In this document: piece by piece, positions 35,029-44,508 of the stretch
Layout: every line of letters starts with the position of its first letter
Numbering within the stretch: the stretch's first letter is position 1
NCBI GenBank assembly: GCA_964458035.1
Contig: CAYWFZ010000001.1
Coordinates: 1 to 58,310, forward strand
Length of the DNA stretch: 58,310 bases
Source: an uncultured Muribaculaceae bacterium
GTDB taxonomy: Bacteria > Bacillota_I > Bacilli_A > RF39 > UBA660
Direction of reading: 5' to 3'
The notes under the pieces: model-generated
Told to the model about the DNA's origin: nothing
Databases searched by the model: none
What the model saw: the letters and a program-made list of their open reading frames with translations, nothing else
Translations under genes and position numbers: made by a program

Positions 35029-36225
35029 ATGGAATTACTTGCTGATAAACTAAGACCTGAAAGCATAAAAGATATTGTTGGACAGAAACACTTAGTTGGC
35101 GAAGGAAAGGTGCTTTATAACCTTGTAAAAAATAAAAAACTTTTTAGTATGATTTTATTCGGAAATCCTGGAATTGGTAAAACTAGTATAGCTTGTGCTT
35201 TAGTTAATGAAATTGGATGTAAATTTAGAATGTTAAATGCTGTTATTAATAATAAGAGTGATTTTGATGTTGTGATTGAAGAAGCAAAGATGTATGGAGA
35301 TATGGTTTTAATAGTAGATGAAATACATCGTATGAATAAAGATAAACAAGATATATTACTTCCCTATATCGAAAATGGAACAATTATTCTAATTGGTCTT
35401 ACGACATCTAACCCATATTATAAAATTAATCCAGCTATTAGAAGCAGATGCCAGATATTTGAATTATATAATTTAAGTGTAGATGATATTAAGGAAGGTT
35501 TAAATAAAGCCTTAAAAGCTTTACCCAAATGTAAACTTGATGATGATGCGTGTAGTTTAATTGCAACACTTTCTTCAGGTGATTTTAGAAGCGCTCTTAA
35601 TTTACTTGAAATGTCTTACTACTCTGCTTCTAAATTCCATGTTACAAGTGAAATTGTTAAAACGATTAATTCTAAGCCCGTTCTTGTTGGGGATGCAAAT
35701 GAATCTGGTCATTATGACTTAATAAGCGCATTTCAAAAAAGCATTCGTGGAAGTGATGTTGATGCTGCTTTATATTATCTTGGGCGTTTAATTGTTATAG
35801 GAGACTTGGATATAATATATCGTAGAATGAATGTTATTGCTTATGAAGATATAGGTCTTGCTAATCCAGGTATGGGACCTAAGGTACGTGCTGCGATTGA
35901 AGCCAGTGAAATGCTGGGATTACCCGAGGCAAGAATACCACTTTCTGTAATTGTTACGGAGCTAGCTTTATCGCCTAAGTCTAATTCAGCTCACATTGCG
36001 CTAGATAAGGCATTAGCTGATATTGAAGCTGGTTCTACAGGAGATGTCCCGCCTTGGATTAAGACTACTTCTCCACTCTATAAATATCCACATGATTATA
36101 AAAATCATTGGGTTAGACAACAATATTTGCCAGATAATATAAAAAACAAAAAGTATTATGAGCCTTGTAATAATAAGTATGAAGCTAATTTAAATAAGAT
36201 TAATAAGGAGATGAAAGAAGAATGA
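35029..36225 (+). CDS. rarA: replication-associated recombination protein A (RarA/MgsA AAA+ ATPase)
   Basis: LRPESIKDIVGQKHL, Walker A GNPGIGKTS, Walker B LIVDEIHRMNK, MgsA C-terminal motifs HYDLISAFQKSIRGSD and EDIGLANP. Confidence 0.93.
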   Translation: MELLADKLRPESIKDIVGQKHLVGEGKVLYNLVKNKKLFSMILFGNPGIGKTSIACALVNEIGCKFRMLNAVINNKSDFDVVIEEAKMYGDMVLIVDEIHRMNKDKQDILLPYIENGTIILIGLTTSNPYYKINPAIRSRCQIFELYNLSVDDIKEGLNKALKALPKCKLDDDACSLIATLSSGDFRSALNLLEMSYYSASKFHVTSEIVKTINSKPVLVGDANESGHYDLISAFQKSIRGSDVDAALYYLGRLIVIGDLDIIYRRMNVIAYEDIGLANPGMGPKVRAAIEASEMLGLPEARIPLSVIVTELALSPKSNSAHIALDKALADIEAGSTGDVPPWIKTTSPLYKYPHDYKNHWVRQQYLPDNIKNKKYYEPCNNKYEANLNKINKEMKEE

Positions 36226-38592: not shown

Positions 38593-39518
38593 TTTTCTTC
38601 ATGTAGGTTGTAATCGATGCAAAGATTTCTCTCTTGAATCCAAGTCAACTTTTCTATATACTTCTCCGATGTAAGTAAGATTTCAAGACTTGGGTAAGTA
38701 ATACACATGCTAATCATTTCTTTTATCTCTTGAATTTTTCTTTTTCTAAAGATACTCTTACATGATGGAGCATGTATAAGTACTGGATTTATATTGTTTT
38801 CAAAAGCATATGCAATTAATTCCAAATATACATCTATAAATGGAACGACTCCTAACCAATATTGTTCAAGTGCTACATCTGTAATTATGGCAGCCTGATT
38901 TTCATCTTTAGCTGTTCTTAGTAGATGTGCAATTGTTAATATATCTTTTTCGTCGGCATTGTATGTACTATTATTTGATAAATAGTTGTGAATTCTATAT
39001 TTTCTATCTTCAGCACATATTTGGTATTCTTCTATGATTTTACTGATTATTGTTGGAGAGATTCCTTTTCTTAGTGCTAGTTCTAGCATTAGAATTGTTG
39101 TCCCACGATATTTATCGTTTGGTAACCTATTATATATTTTTGTAAGCTCGATTAAGTCTTTTATTGAGTAATTTGCAAGTGTTTGATTTTTTTCAAATAT
39201 TATGGCATTTTCGTAGTTTGCAGCATAATCAAGGACTTTTTTTAAATCGCTTTTTTTAACAAATCTTACATTTCTTAAAAACTCAGGACATAATAGTTTT
39301 TCTATTCTCTCGTTTCCGTGTTCCGTTGTTTCAATGTAGGAAAGCACAATTGCATCAGCATATTCTTGTCTTATTTTATATTGAGGCTTTCTTAGCGTTT
39401 TATAGACTGATATTACTTTATCTATAAGATTAGGAGTATTATCTGACTTTATAATTGATTTTAATACCTCTATATCATCTGTATACTCTTTTATTTGATT
39501 AACAATTTTTGCTTTCAT
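38586..39518 (-). CDS. N-terminal 310-aa part of the split paralog; start overlaps the tcdA 3' end by 20 nt
   Basis: MKAKIVNQIKEYT, YADAIVLSYIETT and EKLTWIQERNLCIDYNL align with MKVEVINQLKEYT, SADAIVKIFIEEV and RRLTWDNQKNLIRIYNL of the 406-aa protein. Confidence 0.65.
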   Translation of the reverse strand: MKAKIVNQIKEYTDDIEVLKSIIKSDNTPNLIDKVISVYKTLRKPQYKIRQEYADAIVLSYIETTEHGNERIEKLLCPEFLRNVRFVKKSDLKKVLDYAANYENAIIFEKNQTLANYSIKDLIELTKIYNRLPNDKYRGTTILMLELALRKGISPTIISKIIEEYQICAEDRKYRIHNYLSNNSTYNADEKDILTIAHLLRTAKDENQAAIITDVALEQYWLGVVPFIDVYLELIAYAFENNINPVLIHAPSCKSIFRKRKIQEIKEMISMCITYPSLEILLTSEKYIEKLTWIQERNLCIDYNLHEEKC

Positions 39519-40197
39519 TTTTTTTCACATCCTTAATTATTTCATTTATTATATAAGAAACACAAAGTATTCCGGCAGTACTAGGAACAAGGTTGGCTGT
39601 AGCCAATACTTTGTTTTTAATTGGAACTTCCGTACTTGATATAACATATATTTTTTTATTTATTTTTGCATCTTTTACTTTTTTTCTTAGTATTCTTGCT
39701 ATTGGATCATTTGTTGTTTTATCTAATGTTGTTATTTCTAGTTTAGTTGGGTCTAGTTTGTTCGCGGTCCCCATTGATGAAATTAGTTTGTAATTATAAT
39801 GTAGGGAATTCTCAATCAGTGAAAATTTTACTTTTATATCATCACAAGCATCAATAATAAAGCCGTAGTCTAAATCTAATATCTCTTTAATATTAGACTC
39901 TGTGAGCTTTTTTTCTATTCCATCGACTTCTATATCTGGATTAATAAGTTTTGCTCTTAAAATAGCCTCTATTACTTTAGAATGACCTATATTAGTTGAA
40001 TTCGTAATAAGCTGCCTATTTAAGTTTGTTATATCAATCTTGTCATAGTCAACTATAGTTATATTGGTAAATCCATTTCGAACTAAACTTTCAAGAGCAT
40101 ATGAACCAACTCCACCAACTCCTATAAGAAGTATTCTTTTTGATTTTATTTCCTTATATACATCTTCTCCAATTAAATTTATTAATCTTTCAAACAT
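39499..40197 (-). CDS. tcdA: ThiF/E1-like tRNA threonylcarbamoyladenosine dehydratase TcdA (YrvM-like)
   Basis: ILLIGVGGVGSYALESLVRNGFTNITIVDYDKIDITNLNRQL, IIDACDD, SSMGTANKLDPT, DPIARILRKK. Collinear with Bacillus YrvM as I recall it. Confidence 0.8.
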   Translation of the reverse strand: MFERLINLIGEDVYKEIKSKRILLIGVGGVGSYALESLVRNGFTNITIVDYDKIDITNLNRQLITNSTNIGHSKVIEAILRAKLINPDIEVDGIEKKLTESNIKEILDLDYGFIIDACDDIKVKFSLIENSLHYNYKLISSMGTANKLDPTKLEITTLDKTTNDPIARILRKKVKDAKINKKIYVISSTEVPIKNKVLATANLVPSTAGILCVSYIINEIIKDVKKNESKNC

Positions 40198-40236: not shown

Positions 40237-41457
40237 TTATTCTGATTTTTGTTTTCTTACCCTTAATGAAGAAGTCGGTAATATATCTTCTGATTCTTTA
40301 AAATTATCATTTATTGTTTTAATAAATTCATCTACACTTTTTACAGTTTTTAAGTAATCTTCTACTGTTGTAATATATTCTTCTTTATCTAATTCATTAA
40401 GAATTAAACCATATAGGTCGTTTTTACTTATTTCGTTATTCTCTACTTGAGAGCATAATCTTTTATATATTTGATAGAATGATTCCCTATTGCCTTCATC
40501 CTTAAGATTATATATACGAATTAGATTCTTTTGATTATCCCAAGTAAGACGACGAATAATGGTATGATCAAATATTAGGTCTTCTATTTCAGGGCTTTCG
40601 TTGGCAAGTTGCATCATTTCAATTATCTCTGTATTAGTTCTTGATTCTAATAAATATATTTTGAAGTATCTCTTAGATTTTTTATACTTGTTTTTTACTA
40701 TAACTTTAATAAGTTCGTATATATCTTGAAAATTAATGTCTGCTTGCCATTCTGGTTCATTTAGTGCTTCTTGAACTAATTTTATTTCATCAGGATTATC
40801 AAGTGATGGAATGATTCTTCCAGCAGAAATTAAACTTTCATTTGGTAATTTTATTCCTGTACTTGGTTTTGCTGCTTTACGCATTAAATACTTTTGCTCT
40901 AGTATTTTACATCTGTTGTAATTATTGATAAAACTTTTAATAATGTTAAATTCATAGTTGTTGCTTATGAGTAATGTTAATACATTTGTTACATCTTCAT
41001 TTCCACAGTAAATTGTTGCGAGATTTAAAAGTGAAATATGGTCGAGTAAACCATAAGATTTAGCGTATTCTTCATCCATTAAAAGGGATAAAATGAATGA
41101 ATCTTTTTCTTTAGTATCATTTTTAGTTTTACCTACTTTTTTTGATATAGCTATATAAGAGTTAAGAATTGAAATTGGGTCAACATCGTCTTCTAATTCC
41201 ATAATCTTTTTTATTACTATTTGTTTTTCTGTAAGCAAAGTTTTTAACAAAGTATTGCTGTTATTTATTACTTCTTCTATAAAAATCTTCACTATGGCGT
41301 CAGCTGATTTATTTGCTTTACTATATGGATAATATTCTTTTAAGAGATTATAGAGATTTAGGATCTCTTTTACTTCATCACCTAAATTAAGTGCTAAAAG
41401 TATTATTTCTTTACTTGTTGTATATTCTTTTAATTGATTTATTACTTCTACTTTCAT
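40237..41457 (-). CDS. 406-aa helical protein of unknown function (intact paralog)
   Basis: Own TTGACT-18-TATAAT promoter (41517-41488) and AAGGAGAA Shine-Dalgarno sequence. No motif recognised. Confidence 0.7.
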   Translation of the reverse strand: MKVEVINQLKEYTTSKEIILLALNLGDEVKEILNLYNLLKEYYPYSKANKSADAIVKIFIEEVINNSNTLLKTLLTEKQIVIKKIMELEDDVDPISILNSYIAISKKVGKTKNDTKEKDSFILSLLMDEEYAKSYGLLDHISLLNLATIYCGNEDVTNVLTLLISNNYEFNIIKSFINNYNRCKILEQKYLMRKAAKPSTGIKLPNESLISAGRIIPSLDNPDEIKLVQEALNEPEWQADINFQDIYELIKVIVKNKYKKSKRYFKIYLLESRTNTEIIEMMQLANESPEIEDLIFDHTIIRRLTWDNQKNLIRIYNLKDEGNRESFYQIYKRLCSQVENNEISKNDLYGLILNELDKEEYITTVEDYLKTVKSVDEFIKTINDNFKESEDILPTSSLRVRKQKSE

Positions 41458-41538
41458 ATATTCTCTAATTCTCCTTTTTTATTGTTTATTATAAATTAAT
41501 GTATTTATCTAAGTCAATAAAATAATAAATTTTTGCAT

Positions 41539-41709
41539 AAAAAAAGCCTAAGAGACGTTCGCGTGATAAAAGCCCGCTCGCACGAGGTGGGCATCACATG
41601 CTCCGTTTTAGGATCCCTACGTCTAGGACAAGGTCTTCAACACCACGGGGCAATTAGATTCCCAAGTATCACCAATAGTCGGTTTTATAAGTTTGAACCT
41701 CTCTTAGGT
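41539..41709 (-). ncRNA. unclassified structured GC-rich RNA (~170 nt) with own promoter and U-tail
   Basis: 79/162 G+C in 41547-41708 versus 7/60 in the adjacent 41711-41770 (hand counts). Closing stem CCTAAGAG/CTCTTAGG plus GTTC/GAAC. Several internal GC-rich hairpins. On the minus strand it is preceded by TTACTT-17-TGATATAGT and followed by U7. Confidence 0.7.
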
Positions 41710-41715
41710 AATTTA

Positions 41716-41744
41716 ACTATATCATATTATTTATACTTAAGTAA
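41716..41744 (-). promoter_or_regulatory. extended -10 promoter for the ncRNA
   Basis: On the minus strand: TTACTT (41744-41739), 17-nt spacer, TGATATAGT (41724-41716). The predicted +1 falls at the first base of the closing stem. Confidence 0.6.
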
Positions 41745-41773
41745 ATACATATTTTATTTTTTGACAAAATACT

Positions 41774-42676
41774 TTATTTTAATTCATATTTTTTTAGCTT
41801 TTTGTTTAGTATTTCTTCTGCTTTAAATGATTTTCCATTGAATGAAGATAGTTCGTTTAGTTCTTTATATACAGCCAATATAGTATCTTGATCTATTTCT
41901 AATATCTTTGCATTTTCATTGGTTTCTGGTAATTGATATGGGTTACTACTTAATACTTCAATTTCTCTTTCTGGTTCAATTGGTACAGTTTTAAAATCTT
42001 TGTTTTGAATTTCTTCAAATGTTCCACTTTCATTTGTAACGTGTACTTTGGTTTCACCTTTTATACCAATATATCTTAAGTAGCTTTTTCCCTTAACAAA
42101 GAATATTATAAATAGGCTTTTCCCTGTCGCTTCATTATTTAATTCTTGGTATATTACTTCTTCTCCATTTAACGTAATACCATCGGCATAATATTTATCG
42201 TGTCTGAATAGTGGTATTTCTTCTTTCTTATCAACTACTAGGATGTCTGTTTGTGATTCGGCTAAATGTGTAGCAACTTGTTCACTTAATCCTTTTTCTA
42301 TTAGTTCATTTGTTCTTTCAATAATTCTTTTGAATTCGTATAATCTATGCATTTGATTCTGATTTAGTTCTAGAGTGTCCATTAATATGCTTAAGAATTT
42401 TTCTCCATTTTTAGAATATCTACCAACTAACTCAGCTATTATAGAAAGGTCGTGAGCATCCATATAAAGCATTGCTTTTTTAAAATGATCAGCTGCATAT
42501 TTAGGTGAATTCTCAACTGATTCTTTTAGGTGCATTGATGCCATATCTAAAGTACTAATTGAATCAGGTCTTTTAATTGATTTATCAATTATATAGCTTT
42601 TAAATCCTTCCATTTTTTCAGGTATAATATAATTATTTACTCTTCTAATTATTTTTATTAATCTTTCGTTGTCCAT
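41774..42676 (-). CDS. 300-aa protein of unknown function downstream of the HerA-like ATPase
   Basis: Own TGTTATAAT promoter and GGAGGAA Shine-Dalgarno sequence. Helical N-terminal half and beta-rich C-terminal half by composition. No motif recognised. Confidence 0.7.
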   Translation of the reverse strand: MDNERLIKIIRRVNNYIIPEKMEGFKSYIIDKSIKRPDSISTLDMASMHLKESVENSPKYAADHFKKAMLYMDAHDLSIIAELVGRYSKNGEKFLSILMDTLELNQNQMHRLYEFKRIIERTNELIEKGLSEQVATHLAESQTDILVVDKKEEIPLFRHDKYYADGITLNGEEVIYQELNNEATGKSLFIIFFVKGKSYLRYIGIKGETKVHVTNESGTFEEIQNKDFKTVPIEPEREIEVLSSNPYQLPETNENAKILEIDQDTILAVYKELNELSSFNGKSFKAEEILNKKLKKYELK

Positions 42677-42730: not shown

Positions 42731-42755
42731 GAAAAAACACCTTAATAGGTGTTTT
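42731..42755 (-). terminator. intrinsic terminator after the HerA-like gene
   Basis: The minus strand reads AAAACACCT-ATTA-AGGTGTTTTTT immediately after the stop codon. Confidence 0.75.
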
Positions 42756-44508
42756 ATGCTTTCCATCTTTCAACAACATTGCAGTTTGATGAATATGGTG
42801 CCGGATTTGGCATATCCATTTTAACTATAACTGGTATTTTGAATGCGTTACCAAACGCTACCATAGTACCACTTTGTAAACTTGTAAGCTTTTCAATTAT
42901 ATCACCAGAGATATTAGGTAACATCTTATTGATGTAGTCTAGGTCACGTGGGTGTGTCATTTTTAAAATACAGAAATTAGACATCTGAGCGATAACTGTT
43001 TCTGATATTTCTACTGGACGTTGACTTACAAGATCTAGCATTACCCCATATTTACGACCTTCTTTGGCGATTCGTTCGAATATATTATATCCGAGAAGAA
43101 AATGGTCATTATCAGATACAACATATCTATGTGCTTCTTCTATGAATAAGTGGAAAGGTATTGCTGCTCTTTCTTTTCTACTCTTAGAAAAATCAAAAAT
43201 CATCTTACAGAATATCTTAACCATTGTTTTAGCTAGGTTATCATCTACATCTTCTAAGTTTATATTAACTATCTGGCTTCTTTTATTATTAAATACGATT
43301 AGACTTGAAATATAGTTTTCCAATGTAACATAATTTGGAACATCGAAGAATTTGCGATTAGATGAATTATTTAAACTATGAAGTCTTACTTGCATTATAA
43401 CGGCATTATCTTGCATGATTCTGTTATTCAAAAATCCATCACCAATAAGAGTAAAGCTCATTGCCTTCTCTAAATCATCAAGCGTGTAATAAGCATCCTT
43501 AGGGGCTTCTATTTGTGCCTCTAGTTCATCATCAATAAATTTAAGAAGATATTCATTAATTAGTACTGATTCTCCAAATTCTCCATTTCTATCAATACCG
43601 AAGCATTCAGAGAATTTTCTAGTATAACCAATTCCTTGGATATCAGTGTTGACATTAAATTCTGGGGTTGAACAGTCAGCTATAATTGTGAATATATCAT
43701 TTTTCTTAGCTGATGCATTTTGGTTTGAGAAAAGTACTGTCATTATAGCTTTTGCAATTAAATGATTCTTTAGTTTTTTAGTTGTTTCATCATCTCTTGA
43801 AAATAATTTTGCTAATTTTAACATTCTTTCGATTATTGTATATTGATGATGGTTATCAGCCTGTAATAAAAGACATATATCATCAATTGTAAGTAGGAAT
43901 ACAGGAATCTTTAATAAGACATCTGTGTCATCTACTGGATTACTTGTTATAAATTTATATTGATAGTTTGGATTGAATTGATTAAGCACTCTAAATGCTG
44001 TTTTATATTCGCCATAAGCATCAAATATAAATAGGTTTGCATTAAATGATAAGAAGTTTTTGTTTAAGAAGATATTTTGAACTATTCTTGCAACAGAACA
44101 AGATTTACCAGAACCAGTATTACCAAATATAGATAAGTGGTTTGAAAACATATCATTTATATCAACGTAAACGTCTTTTCCATTATATATTGCTGACTTA
44201 CCTAGGTAAAGATTCCCTTGTTTATTGGAGCCTAAGATAATATTTAATTCGTCGTCATTAATTATTCTAATTTGACTGTCTAGGGTTGGCTTTTTTATAG
44301 TACCAGCAATAAATCTATCTCCAACGAATTGACCCATTAAGTCAATGTGTACAGTATCTTCATCGGCTTTTTTTACTTCACCTAGCAATTTTTGATCTTT
44401 TGTTTCAAATATAACATGCAAGTTCATTAGGTTAGGTACAACCATGTTTTCCTTATGTATCTCTACTACGGCAGTAATATCATCAATATATTTAATCTTA
44501 CCAAACAT
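42754..44508 (-). CDS. HerA-like (DUF87) FtsK/HerA-superfamily P-loop ATPase with N-terminal HAS-barrel
   Basis: Barrel-like N-terminus (GKIKYIDDITAVVEI...LLGEVKK...). Walker A SIFGNTGSGKS. Walker B-like FHLFIEEAHRY. Arg-finger region LVSQRP. Confidence 0.75.
   Translation of the reverse strand: MFGKIKYIDDITAVVEIHKENMVVPNLMNLHVIFETKDQKLLGEVKKADEDTVHIDLMGQFVGDRFIAGTIKKPTLDSQIRIINDDELNIILGSNKQGNLYLGKSAIYNGKDVYVDINDMFSNHLSIFGNTGSGKSCSVARIVQNIFLNKNFLSFNANLFIFDAYGEYKTAFRVLNQFNPNYQYKFITSNPVDDTDVLLKIPVFLLTIDDICLLLQADNHHQYTIIERMLKLAKLFSRDDETTKKLKNHLIAKAIMTVLFSNQNASAKKNDIFTIIADCSTPEFNVNTDIQGIGYTRKFSECFGIDRNGEFGESVLINEYLLKFIDDELEAQIEAPKDAYYTLDDLEKAMSFTLIGDGFLNNRIMQDNAVIMQVRLHSLNNSSNRKFFDVPNYVTLENYISSLIVFNNKRSQIVNINLEDVDDNLAKTMVKIFCKMIFDFSKSRKERAAIPFHLFIEEAHRYVVSDNDHFLLGYNIFERIAKEGRKYGVMLDLVSQRPVEISETVIAQMSNFCILKMTHPRDLDYINKMLPNISGDIIEKLTSLQSGTMVAFGNAFKIPVIVKMDMPNPAPYSSNCNVVERWKA

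What the first reader, a model, noticed from the sequence alone, without database searches (positions are those of the whole stretch)
41539..41744. Stand-alone ~170-nt GC-rich structured RNA of no class I can recognise
This is a sharp GC island: 79/162 G+C versus 7/60 in the next 60 nt (hand counts).
- The ends pair: CCTAAGAG (41547-54) with CTCTTAGG (41701-08), extended by GTTC/GAAC (41557-60 / 41695-98).
- One hairpin is GTGAT/ATCAC (41563-67 / 41593-97), enclosing GCCC/GGGC (41572-75 / 41589-92) and a CTC-GCAC-GAG apex.
- Two more hairpins are CCTA-CGTC-TAGG (41616-27) and GGG-N10-CCC (41648-63).
- On the minus strand the RNA is preceded by TTACTT-17-TGATATAGT and ends in U7.
The next gene has its own TTGACT-18-TATAAT promoter, so this is not simply its leader. 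I found none of the SRP helix-8 sequence (GGAAGCAGC), the T-box sequence, tRNA-like features, or the common riboswitch cores I remember. 6S-like or raiA-like RNA cannot be excluded by eye.
Basis: seen in the sequence. Interest (0 to 1): 0.65.

Follow-up and report, generated by a model that had tools for sequence, protein, structure and literature searches.

The report
Divergent 6S RNA gene upstream of tcdA
The GC-rich island is the gene for 6S RNA, the well-known small RNA that mimics an open promoter and sequesters RNA polymerase; it looked unclassifiable only because this low-GC gut bacterium's copy scores just under the Rfam annotation cut-off.

Summary
The claim that the RNA belongs to no recognisable class does not hold.

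- **Rfam match.** On the minus strand, 41541-41713 matches the 6S/SsrS model RF00013 over its full length. It scores 39.2 bits against a gathering score of 46.4, with E 1.4e-6 locally and 1.8e-4 window-wide. It is the only Rfam hit in the 58 kb.
- **Orthologues.** The same RNA occurs in related uncultured gut Bacilli. These copies score 41-67 bits, so the lineage straddles the cut-off.
- **Structure.** Across 98 distinct orthologues, the fold of closing stem, central bubble and apical stem is 95% paired. 24 of 35 pairs show compensatory changes.
- **Context.** As with B. subtilis 6S-1 (bsrA), the RNA lies upstream of tcdA/yrvM; one relative has T-box-hisS-aspS-6S-tcdA.
- **Promoter and ends.** A conserved extended -10 promoter predicts a start at A41709. 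The RNA ends in U7 (41545-41539), giving about 171 nt.
- **Expression.** In mouse-gut metatranscriptomes, very high coverage is confined to this interval.

Verdict: an ordinary 6S RNA of low novelty. RNA polymerase binding and product-RNA (pRNA) synthesis are inferred, not shown.

The parts
41740..41745 (-). -35-like hexamer TTTACT of the 6S promoter
   Evidence: Found by the promoter scan. TTTAC(T) or ATTTAC recurs at the same spacing in most orthologues.
41716..41724 (-). Extended -10 element TGaTATAGT
   Evidence: TATGATATA(A/G/T)T is conserved in nearly all 25 orthologues inspected. It always ends 7 nt before the ACC that opens the closing stem.
41539..41709 (-). 6S RNA (SsrS) gene, about 171 nt. 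The 5' end at A41709 is predicted from promoter geometry; the 3' end lies in U7.
   Evidence: Full-length RF00013 match at 41541-41713, 39.2 bits. My own covariance model R1 scores 162 bits at 41538-41719. Metatranscriptome coverage is confined to 41536-41717. Adapter-flanked fragments end at 41546 and 41706.
41695..41708 (-). Closing stem, 5' strand (CCUAAGAGAGGUUC)
   Evidence: Pairs with 41547-41560: 13 of 14 standard pairs plus one G-G mismatch. 6 of the 14 pairs show compensatory changes among the 20 closest relatives.
41547..41560 (-). Closing stem, 3' strand (GAACGUCUCUUAGG)
41681..41688 (-). Bubble-proximal stem, 5' strand (AUAAAACC). It pairs with GG(gc)UUUUAU at 41566-41575.
   Evidence: 90-95% paired. 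The stem is mostly invariant, with a few compensatory changes in the wide alignment.
41664..41680 (-). Central bubble, 5' strand (GACUAUUGGUGAUACUU, 17 nt). It contains the predicted pRNA start at C41678 or U41677.
   Evidence: Unpaired in the Rfam alignment and in the consensus structures. AACCGACUA is invariant in the orthologues found through tcdA synteny. The pRNA start is inferred by analogy (PMC8414754, PMC3753640).
41589..41663 (-). Apical (internal) stem with terminal hairpin. GGGAAUC pairs with GAUGCCC, UGCCCCGU with ACGGAGCA, GA with UC, and CCU with AGG.
   Evidence: Strongest covariation of the RNA. All 8 pairs of the middle helix have compensatory changes and are 96-98% paired.
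41576..41588 (-). Central bubble, 3' strand (ACCUCGUGCGAGC), with a 3-bp mini-hairpin CUC-GUGC-GAG at 41577-41586
   Evidence: the mini-hairpin is 98% paired among close relatives. The same feature is described opposite the 5' bulge in 6S RNAs of lactic acid bacteria and in B. subtilis 6S-1 (PMC8414754).
41539..41545 (-). U7 tract directly after the closing stem; the likely 3' end or terminator
   Evidence: Sequence. A U-run follows the closing stem in nearly all orthologues.
39499..40197 (-). tcdA/yrvM-like ThiF-family gene, the conserved downstream neighbour of the 6S gene
   Evidence: Pfam ThiF, E 1e-36. The best NCBIfam match is TcdA, below that model's curated cut-off. Among metagenome loci picked by the RNA pattern alone, 39 of 60 have tcdA within 1.5 kb downstream on the same strand.

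Best explanation
The element is the ssrS/bsrA-type gene for 6S RNA of an uncultured, low-GC gut bacterium of the class Bacilli.

**Transcript.** The RNA is about 171 nt, on the minus strand. It is transcribed from its own extended -10 promoter and ends in a U7 tract directly after its closing stem.

**Fold.** It forms the canonical 6S rod:
- a closing stem of 13-14 bp;
- a short stem next to the bubble (AUAAAACC with GG..UUUUAU);
- a large central bubble, 17 nt on the 5' side and 13 nt on the 3' side, the latter with a mini-hairpin;
- a long apical stem.

**Mechanism, by analogy with E. coli and B. subtilis 6S RNAs (inferred, not shown here).**
- The rod mimics an open promoter.
- It occupies the active site of the housekeeping sigma-A RNA polymerase holoenzyme and damps sigma-A-dependent transcription when nutrients are scarce.
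- On outgrowth, the polymerase uses the 5' strand of the bubble as a template for a short product RNA (pRNA). The predicted product is 5'-GUCGGUUUUAU... from C41678, or 5'-AGUCGG... from U41677.
- The pRNA unzips the bubble-proximal stem, refolds the RNA and releases the enzyme.

**Why default annotation misses it.** The closing stem is shorter than the Rfam model's, and there are a few mismatches. These leave the copy at 39.2 bits, below the 46.4-bit gathering score.
For: **Shown here**
1. RF00013 matches over its full length (model 1-187) on the minus strand at 41541-41713. E is 1.4e-6 in the 451-nt search. It is the only hit at E<=1 in the whole window, at 1.8e-4.
2. The same RNA sits upstream of tcdA in 15 related genomes (nhmmer). 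Seven of 12 such loci scanned reach the gathering score, at 51.6-67.4 bits.
3. Eleven further metagenome relatives all give full-length 6S hits of 41.4-54.9 bits.
4. Covariation supports the 6S architecture in three alignments:
 - 16 orthologues aligned with MAFFT: 93.4% paired, 16 of 35 pairs compensatory, 0 of 500 shuffles as good, slid controls at most 50%.
 - 98 distinct sequences: 95.0% paired, 24 of 35 pairs compensatory, 656 compensatory cells.
 - The 20 closest relatives with the full 44-pair structure: 96.4% paired, 16 compensatory pairs, 6 of them in the closing stem.
5. The strand is fixed by several independent lines:
 - the Rfam hit is on the minus strand only;
 - G-U pairs are frequent (for example UG:45 against UA:43 at one closing-stem pair);
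 - the promoter and U-tract are conserved.
6. Expression:
 - In mouse-gut metatranscriptome X34, summed contig depth is 27,000-190,000 across 41536-41691, about 3,300 in 41692-41717, and zero on both flanks.
 - Adapter-flanked fragment ends in X34 fall at 41546 and 41706.
 - X30 contains a free-standing 188-nt contig covering 41546-41729.
7. Synteny:
 - In B. subtilis, bsrA (6S-1) is flanked by aspS on the 5' side and yrvM on the 3' side (PMC11077062; Suzuma 2002, cited in PMC3299989).
 - Locus L013 reads T-box-hisS-aspS-6S-tcdA.
 - 39 of 60 metagenome loci selected by the RNA pattern alone have tcdA downstream.

**Inferred:** RNA polymerase binding, pRNA templating and release.
Against: - The window's own copy is below Rfam's curated gathering score (39.2 against 46.4 bits), so the default scan reports nothing.
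- The single-sequence minimum-free-energy fold differs from the 6S fold (-53.9 kcal/mol, against -43.9 for the partial 6S-type structure).
- No biochemical evidence exists for this lineage, and pRNAs could not be looked for.
- The metatranscriptome evidence comes from assembled contigs of related strains at 85-100% identity. It has no strand information, and contig depth is a poor measure of abundance.
Confidence: 0.94

Rival explanations
1. It is a cis-acting 5' leader (riboswitch or attenuator) of tcdA. The closing stem plus U7 would act as a regulated terminator, and the RNA would have no function in trans.
For: In many close relatives the tcdA start codon lies only 11-30 nt after the U-tract, with no promoter in between. 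25 of 60 metagenome loci have tcdA within 100 nt. tcdA therefore probably depends on read-through from the 6S promoter.
Against: - The RNA matches the 6S model over its full length, and no cis-regulatory family matches at all.
- In this window, a 406-aa gene with its own TTGACT-18-TATAAT promoter separates the RNA from tcdA. In L002, 5.8 kb of other genes intervene. The RNA is fully conserved in both.
- Metatranscriptome depth is orders of magnitude higher on the RNA than on the flanks.
- B. subtilis has the same bsrA-yrvM arrangement with a validated trans-acting 6S-1, and read-through extensions there still bind the holoenzyme (PMC11077062).
- No alternative terminator/antiterminator pairing covaries.
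Confidence: 0.04
2. It is a structured small RNA of a new class, that resembles 6S only superficially.
For: It lies below the Rfam gathering score. In the subclade, the segments GUGAU...AUCAC and GCCC...GGGC are invariant and could form a local hairpin that is not part of the canonical 6S fold.
Against: - Clear orthologues pass the curated 6S threshold.
- The covarying pairs are those of the 6S architecture.
- Synteny matches B. subtilis 6S-1.
- The local hairpin is not supported outside the subclade. It would also fit the known pRNA-induced refolding of 6S RNAs.
Confidence: 0.015
3. It is a chance GC-rich stretch, a gene remnant or a mobile-element fragment with no RNA function.
For: It lies in a variable region next to genes of unknown function.
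Against: - It is conserved at one copy per locus in 100 of 100 loci searched.
- 24 of 35 pairs show compensatory changes.
- The promoter is conserved.
- It is abundant in metatranscriptomes.
- The 97-aa ORF on the plus strand (41533-41826) is not conserved in relatives whose sequence differs by indels.
Confidence: 0.005

Closest known systems
Bacillus subtilis 6S-1 RNA (bsrA, BS190)
   Same: - Same Rfam family, RF00013.
- Same rod architecture, including a mini-hairpin on the 3' side of the central bubble.
- Same genomic position upstream of the ThiF-family gene yrvM/tcdA. In relative L013 it also lies directly downstream of hisS-aspS with a T-box leader.
- Its predicted pRNA begins G-U-(U)-C-G-G-U, like the B. 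subtilis pRNA (the B. subtilis sequence is from my memory; the GG hallmark is from PMC8414754).
   Different: - It is shorter, about 171 nt against about 190 nt, with a closing stem of 13-14 bp.
- The stem unwound by the pRNA is AAAACC/GGUUUU, so the pRNA would be U-rich after position 6 and would lack the AA at positions 9/10 seen in lactic acid bacteria and in 6S-1.
- In this window a 406-aa gene of unknown function has been inserted between 6S and tcdA.
- There are no experimental data for this RNA.
Escherichia coli 6S RNA (ssrS)
   Same: Same family and the same presumed mechanism: open-promoter mimicry, sequestration of the housekeeping holoenzyme, and pRNA-driven release.
   Different: - The gene context differs: ssrS-ygfA in E. 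coli (from memory).
- The E. coli RNA is processed from longer precursors. Here promoter geometry predicts a primary 5' end right at the closing stem, and the 3' end lies in a U-tract.
- Sequence identity is low outside the bubble-flanking motifs.
6S RNAs of Lactobacillales (PMC8414754)
   Same: - Canonical P1-P6 layout with a 5' central bulge.
- A hairpin lies opposite the bulge.
- A conserved adenine is next to the predicted pRNA start, and the pRNA has a GG dinucleotide at positions 4/5 or 5/6.
- Many of those genes were also recoverable only with relaxed covariance-model thresholds plus synteny.
   Different: In lactic acid bacteria the 6S gene lies between rarA and uspA. Here it is linked to tcdA (and to aspS in relatives), as in Bacillus.

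Membership tests
6S RNA (Rfam RF00013, SsrS/BsrA) | Statistically significant, full-length match to the family covariance model on one strand | tested here: met
   Model positions 1-187 of 187, 39.2 bits. E is 1.4e-6 in the 451-nt search and 1.8e-4 over the 58-kb window, where it is the only hit.
6S RNA (Rfam RF00013, SsrS/BsrA) | Reaches Rfam's curated gathering score of 46.4 bits. This is an annotation threshold, not a biological property. | tested here: not met
   The window copy scores 39.2 bits. Orthologues of the same RNA score 41.4-67.4 bits. Ten of the 23 loci scanned that carry the RNA reach the threshold, so the lineage straddles it.
6S RNA (Rfam RF00013, SsrS/BsrA) | Rod-like fold of closing stem, large central bubble and apical stem, supported by covariation | tested here: met
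   93-96% of cells are paired. 16 to 24 pairs carry compensatory changes. 0 of 500 shuffles do as well, and slid controls stay at or below 55%. RNAalifold recovers the closing and apical stems de novo. The bubble is 17 nt on one side and 13 nt on the other.
6S RNA (Rfam RF00013, SsrS/BsrA) | Discrete, abundant transcript of about 160-200 nt with its own promoter | tested here: met
   The extended -10 promoter and the U-tract are conserved. Metatranscriptome coverage is confined to 41536-41717 at very high depth. A free-standing 188-nt contig was found. Caveat: these are contigs from related strains, they are unstranded, and the ends are not mapped to the nucleotide.
6S RNA (Rfam RF00013, SsrS/BsrA) | Binds the housekeeping sigma (sigma-70 or sigma-A) RNA polymerase holoenzyme | not testable with these tools
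   Needs RIP-seq, pull-down or a gel-shift assay.
6S RNA (Rfam RF00013, SsrS/BsrA) | Serves as template for pRNA starting in the 5' strand of the central bubble | not tested
   There is only a prediction: a start at C41678 or U41677 within the invariant AACCGACUA. The available runs are assembled contigs, in which products of 8-20 nt cannot be seen.
6S-1 (bsrA) locus type of Bacilli | Position between aspS and yrvM/tcdA | tested here: met
   tcdA is the downstream neighbour on the same strand in the window, 1.3 kb away after an inserted gene. The same holds in 39 of 60 independently selected metagenome loci. L013 has T-box-hisS-aspS-6S-tcdA. The B. subtilis arrangement is taken from PMC11077062.
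   No other family has a credible match in 41400-41850. At E<=10 there are only two chance-level hits, at 13-14 bits. Nothing else appears at E<=1 in the whole window. ARAGORN finds no tRNA or tmRNA.

The most novel reading that the evidence does not exclude
In this subclade the 6S RNA might double as the transcriptional gate for tcdA.
- The closing stem plus U-tract is the only terminator-like signal between the strong 6S promoter and tcdA, whose start codon is about 20 nt downstream in most close relatives.
- The subclade-invariant GUGAU...AUCAC and GCCC...GGGC segments could form an alternative hairpin.
- If so, 6S folding or pRNA-driven refolding would set read-through into a tRNA-modification gene.

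This would be a trans-acting regulator with an added cis-acting role.
Probability: 0.07. Interest if true: 0.35.

Novelty: new member of a known kind. Interest (0 to 1): 0.1.

Why it matters
Its importance is mainly for annotation. A whole lineage of uncultured, low-GC gut Bacilli carries a canonical 6S RNA that the curated Rfam threshold catches only about half the time (41-67 bits against a cut-off of 46.4). Their genomes will therefore often appear to lack this global transcription regulator.

The roughly 100 orthologues collected here, together with the conserved tcdA linkage and promoter, could be used to extend the family seed alignment.

The result also removes this RNA from the list of candidate parts of an 'undescribed system' in the neighbouring block of unknown genes. 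Biologically it is the expected housekeeping small RNA.

Tried and rejected
- **Default Rfam scan of the window.** No hits, which is misleading. The permissive scan was needed.
- **The genome search and the fetch from genomes.** I could not search the organism's own genome for a second 6S paralogue, nor place the organism taxonomically beyond 'uncultured Bacilli / Tenericutes-like gut MAGs' (metagenome-assembled genomes; titles).
- **Single-sequence folding.**
 - The z-scores are modest: -2.5 on the RNA strand and -3.7 on the opposite strand.
 - I therefore rejected it as a guide to the structure.
It is 65% paired, below shuffled controls. I kept it only as a possible subclade-specific alternative conformer.
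- **Twelve more distant tcdA loci (L006-L012 and others).** No 6S reaches the gathering score and nhmmer finds nothing. The tcdA linkage is therefore not universal.
- **Literature search for 6S in Mollicutes/Tenericutes-like lineages.** Nothing specific turned up.
- **Raw-read RNA runs X21-X24.** These carry the same species label as the source sample but look like very large host transcriptomes. I did not lay reads on them.
- **A malformed protein query and a too-short search term.** Both failed and were repeated correctly.

Full report
**1. The observation**

- G+C is 79/162 for 41547-41708 and 7/60 for the next 60 nt, exactly as counted by hand.
- At 0.468 G+C, the island ties for the most G+C-rich 171-nt stretch of a window that is 28% G+C overall.
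- The end pairing is present: CCTAAGAG with CTCTTAGG, and GTTC with GAAC.
- The A7 run (U7 on the minus strand) is at 41539-41545.
- The minus-strand promoter TTTACT-18-TGaTATAGT and the separate TTGACT-18-TATAAT promoter of the downstream gene are both there.

**2. What it is**

The default Rfam scan of the window returns nothing. With permissive filters, one family stands out.
- RF00013 (6S/SsrS RNA) matches on the minus strand at 41541-41713, over model positions 1-187 of 187.
- The score is 39.2 bits against a gathering score of 46.4, with E 1.4e-6 for the 451-nt search.
- In a permissive scan of all 58 kb it is the only hit at E<=1, at E 1.8e-4.

I therefore fetched relatives through the neighbouring ThiF-family gene at 39499-40197.
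- This gave 33 loci, mostly uncultured gut Bacilli or 'Tenericutes' MAGs (metagenome-assembled genomes). The best protein identity was 74%.
- nhmmer with the window RNA found a homologue on the same strand upstream of that gene in 15 of them.
- Of 12 such loci scanned with Rfam at the curated threshold, seven have a 6S hit at exactly that place, at 51.6-67.4 bits.

A pattern built from invariant positions pulled 120 more loci from metagenomes. Eleven of the closest all give full-length RF00013 hits of 41.4-54.9 bits, three of them above threshold.

So this is a 6S lineage that straddles the Rfam cut-off, and the window's copy is at its low end. The Rfam alignment shows why:
- the closing stem is much shorter than the model's, with deletions of 7+1+1 model positions on the 5' side and 4+5 on the 3' side;
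- several pairs are flagged as non-canonical.

**3. Structure**

RNAalifold on a plain MAFFT alignment of 16 orthologues recovers the closing stem and the long apical stem de novo. I then tested a 6S-type structure on three alignments.

| Alignment | Pairs tested | Cells paired | Pairs with compensatory change | Shuffles as good | Slid controls |
|---|---|---|---|---|---|
| 16 orthologues, MAFFT | 35 | 93.4% | 16 | 0/500 | at most 50% |
| 98 distinct sequences, fitted to model R1 | 35 | 95.0% | 24 (656 cells) | 0/500 | at most 51% |
| 20 closest relatives, MAFFT, full structure | 44 | 96.4% | 16, of which 6 in the closing stem | 0/500 | at most 55% |

- Caveat on the 98-sequence alignment: it is fitted to the model, and the 5' sides of some invariant pairs were fixed by my search pattern. 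The covarying helices lie outside the pattern.
- The central bubble is 17 nt (GACUAUUGGUGAUACUU) opposite 13 nt (ACCUCGUGCGAGC).
- The 3' side of the bubble carries a 3-bp mini-hairpin. This feature is described for B. subtilis 6S-1 and for 6S RNAs of lactic acid bacteria (PMC8414754).

GGG-N10-CCC cannot be conserved, because CCCC is replaced by GUCU, GCUU or AUUU in close relatives while its long-range partner changes in step. The single-sequence minimum-free-energy fold is therefore a poor guide.

The GUGAU...AUCAC segments are nevertheless invariant in the 20-sequence subclade. They could form an alternative conformer, for instance the pRNA-induced refolded state. This remains open.

**4. 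Strand, ends and expression**

*Strand.* The RNA strand is the minus strand.
- The Rfam hit is on that strand only.
- G-U pairs are frequent in covarying positions.
- The promoter and U-tract are conserved.

*Ends.*
- An extended -10 element, TATGATATA(A/G/T)T, is present in nearly all of 25 orthologues inspected.
- It always ends 7 nt before the ACC that opens the closing stem, and usually has a TTTAC-like -35 element.
- Promoter geometry puts +1 at A41709.
- The RNA ends in the U7 tract at 41545-41539, giving about 171 nt.

*Expression.* All of this evidence comes from related strains and from unstranded contigs.
- In mouse-gut metatranscriptome X34, summed contig depth is 27,000-190,000 in the bins from 41536 to 41691 and about 3,300 in 41692-41717.
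- Depth in X34 is zero on both flanks.
- Adapter-flanked fragment ends in X34 fall at 41546 and 41706.
- X30 holds a free-standing 188-nt contig covering 41546-41729.
- X33 holds an adapter-flanked insert covering 41559-41696.
- Strain differences seen in these runs are largely compensatory. For example, CCCC to AUUU at 41650-41647 occurs with G to A at 41604.

**5. Context**

The downstream gene is a ThiF-family protein whose best NCBIfam match is TcdA. In B. subtilis, bsrA (6S-1) is flanked by aspS on the 5' side and yrvM on the 3' side (PMC11077062; Suzuma et al. 2002, cited in PMC3299989). That yrvM is the TcdA homologue is from my own knowledge.
- Relative L013 has T-box leader, hisS, aspS, 6S, tcdA in that order.
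- Among metagenome loci chosen by the RNA pattern alone, 39 of 60 with enough flank have tcdA within 1.5 kb downstream on the same strand. In 25 of them it is within 100 nt.
- In the close relatives L003-L005 the tcdA start codon follows the U-tract by about 20 nt.
- In this window a 406-aa gene of unknown function, with its own promoter, sits in between.
- L001 has a distantly related 377-aa gene there.
- L002 has three genes spanning 5.8 kb there.
- The closest relative, L148, has nothing there.

The gap between 6S and tcdA is therefore a variable insertion site.

**6. Mechanism**

*Shown here:*
- family-level homology;
- the 6S fold;
- the promoter and U-tract;
- abundance in metatranscriptomes.

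*Inferred from the family:*
- The rod mimics an open promoter and sequesters the sigma-A holoenzyme.
- On outgrowth, the polymerase transcribes a pRNA from the 5' bubble strand.
- The pRNA unzips AUAAAACC/GG..UUUUAU and releases the enzyme.

*Predicted pRNA start,* from the invariant AACCGACUA at the edge of the bubble and the published hallmarks (PMC8414754; PMC3753640). The hallmarks are a GG at pRNA positions 4/5 or 5/6, an adenine next to the start, and a preference of B. subtilis holoenzyme for GTP initiation.
- C41678 would give 5'-GUCGGUUUUAU...
- U41677 would give 5'-AGUCGG...

**7. Rivals**

- *A tcdA leader or attenuator.* This is the only rival worth weighing, because of the 20-nt spacing in relatives. 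It is contradicted by the following:
 - the 6S model match;
 - conservation of the RNA where other genes intervene;
 - flank-free abundance in metatranscriptomes;
 - the B. subtilis precedent.
- *A new RNA class, or a non-functional island.* Both are excluded.

**8. Verdict**

This is a genuine, correctly delimited small RNA, but it is the ordinary 6S RNA. It is a new member of a known family that is sub-threshold in Rfam for this low-GC lineage. Interest is low. Its value lies in annotation and in seed-alignment coverage.

Noticed in passing
window 40237-41457 (-); L001:4805-5938; L002:227-5920; L148:1381-1651: The short gap between the 6S terminator and tcdA is a variable insertion site. This window has a 406-aa protein with no family match and its own promoter. 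L001 has a 377-aa protein with 28% identity over 115 C-terminal residues. L002 has three genes (345 aa AAA_3/MoxR-like ATPase, 946 aa, 609 aa). The closest relative, L148, has nothing there.
   Followed up: partly
window 41563-41567 and 41593-41597 (GTGAT/ATCAC), 41572-75 and 41589-92: GUGAU...AUCAC and GCCC...GGGC are invariant in all 20 sequences of the near subclade, although they are not paired in the covariation-supported 6S fold and are not conserved in the wider clade. They may form an alternative, pRNA-induced conformer. This is unresolved.
   Followed up: partly
L013:2489-2653 and L014:792-956: T-box leaders (95.7 bits against a gathering score of 93). The L013 one lies directly upstream of hisS-aspS and so reproduces the B. 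subtilis hisS-aspS-bsrA-yrvM layout. The window itself has no T-box or any other Rfam hit at E<=1, and no tRNA, in 58 kb.
   Followed up: partly
window 42754-44508 (-): A 584-aa HerA/DUF87 ATPase. Its best NCBIfam matches are the 'anti-phage-associated helicase HerA' models (E 6.5e-53), far below their curated cut-offs. In L001 a 584-aa ORF, not checked for homology, sits directly upstream of 6S. The 300-aa unknown gene at 41774-42676 is absent from L001; a 299-aa ORF sits at that position in L148.
   Followed up: no
L017:5418-5999, L022:5495-6001 and relatives: In a second subclade, a small protein containing a YcxB-like domain (about 170-200 aa) is encoded between 6S and tcdA. Its ORF starts inside or right after the 3' end of the 6S gene.
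   Followed up: no
window about 35883-36053: The only other 171-nt stretch with G+C as high as the 6S gene (0.468). It lies inside the 398-aa ORF at 35029-36225 and has no Rfam hit.
   Followed up: no
window 41533-41826 (+): A 97-aa ORF on the plus strand runs antisense across the whole 6S gene. It is an artefact of the G+C-rich island, and indels among orthologues do not preserve it.
   Followed up: partly
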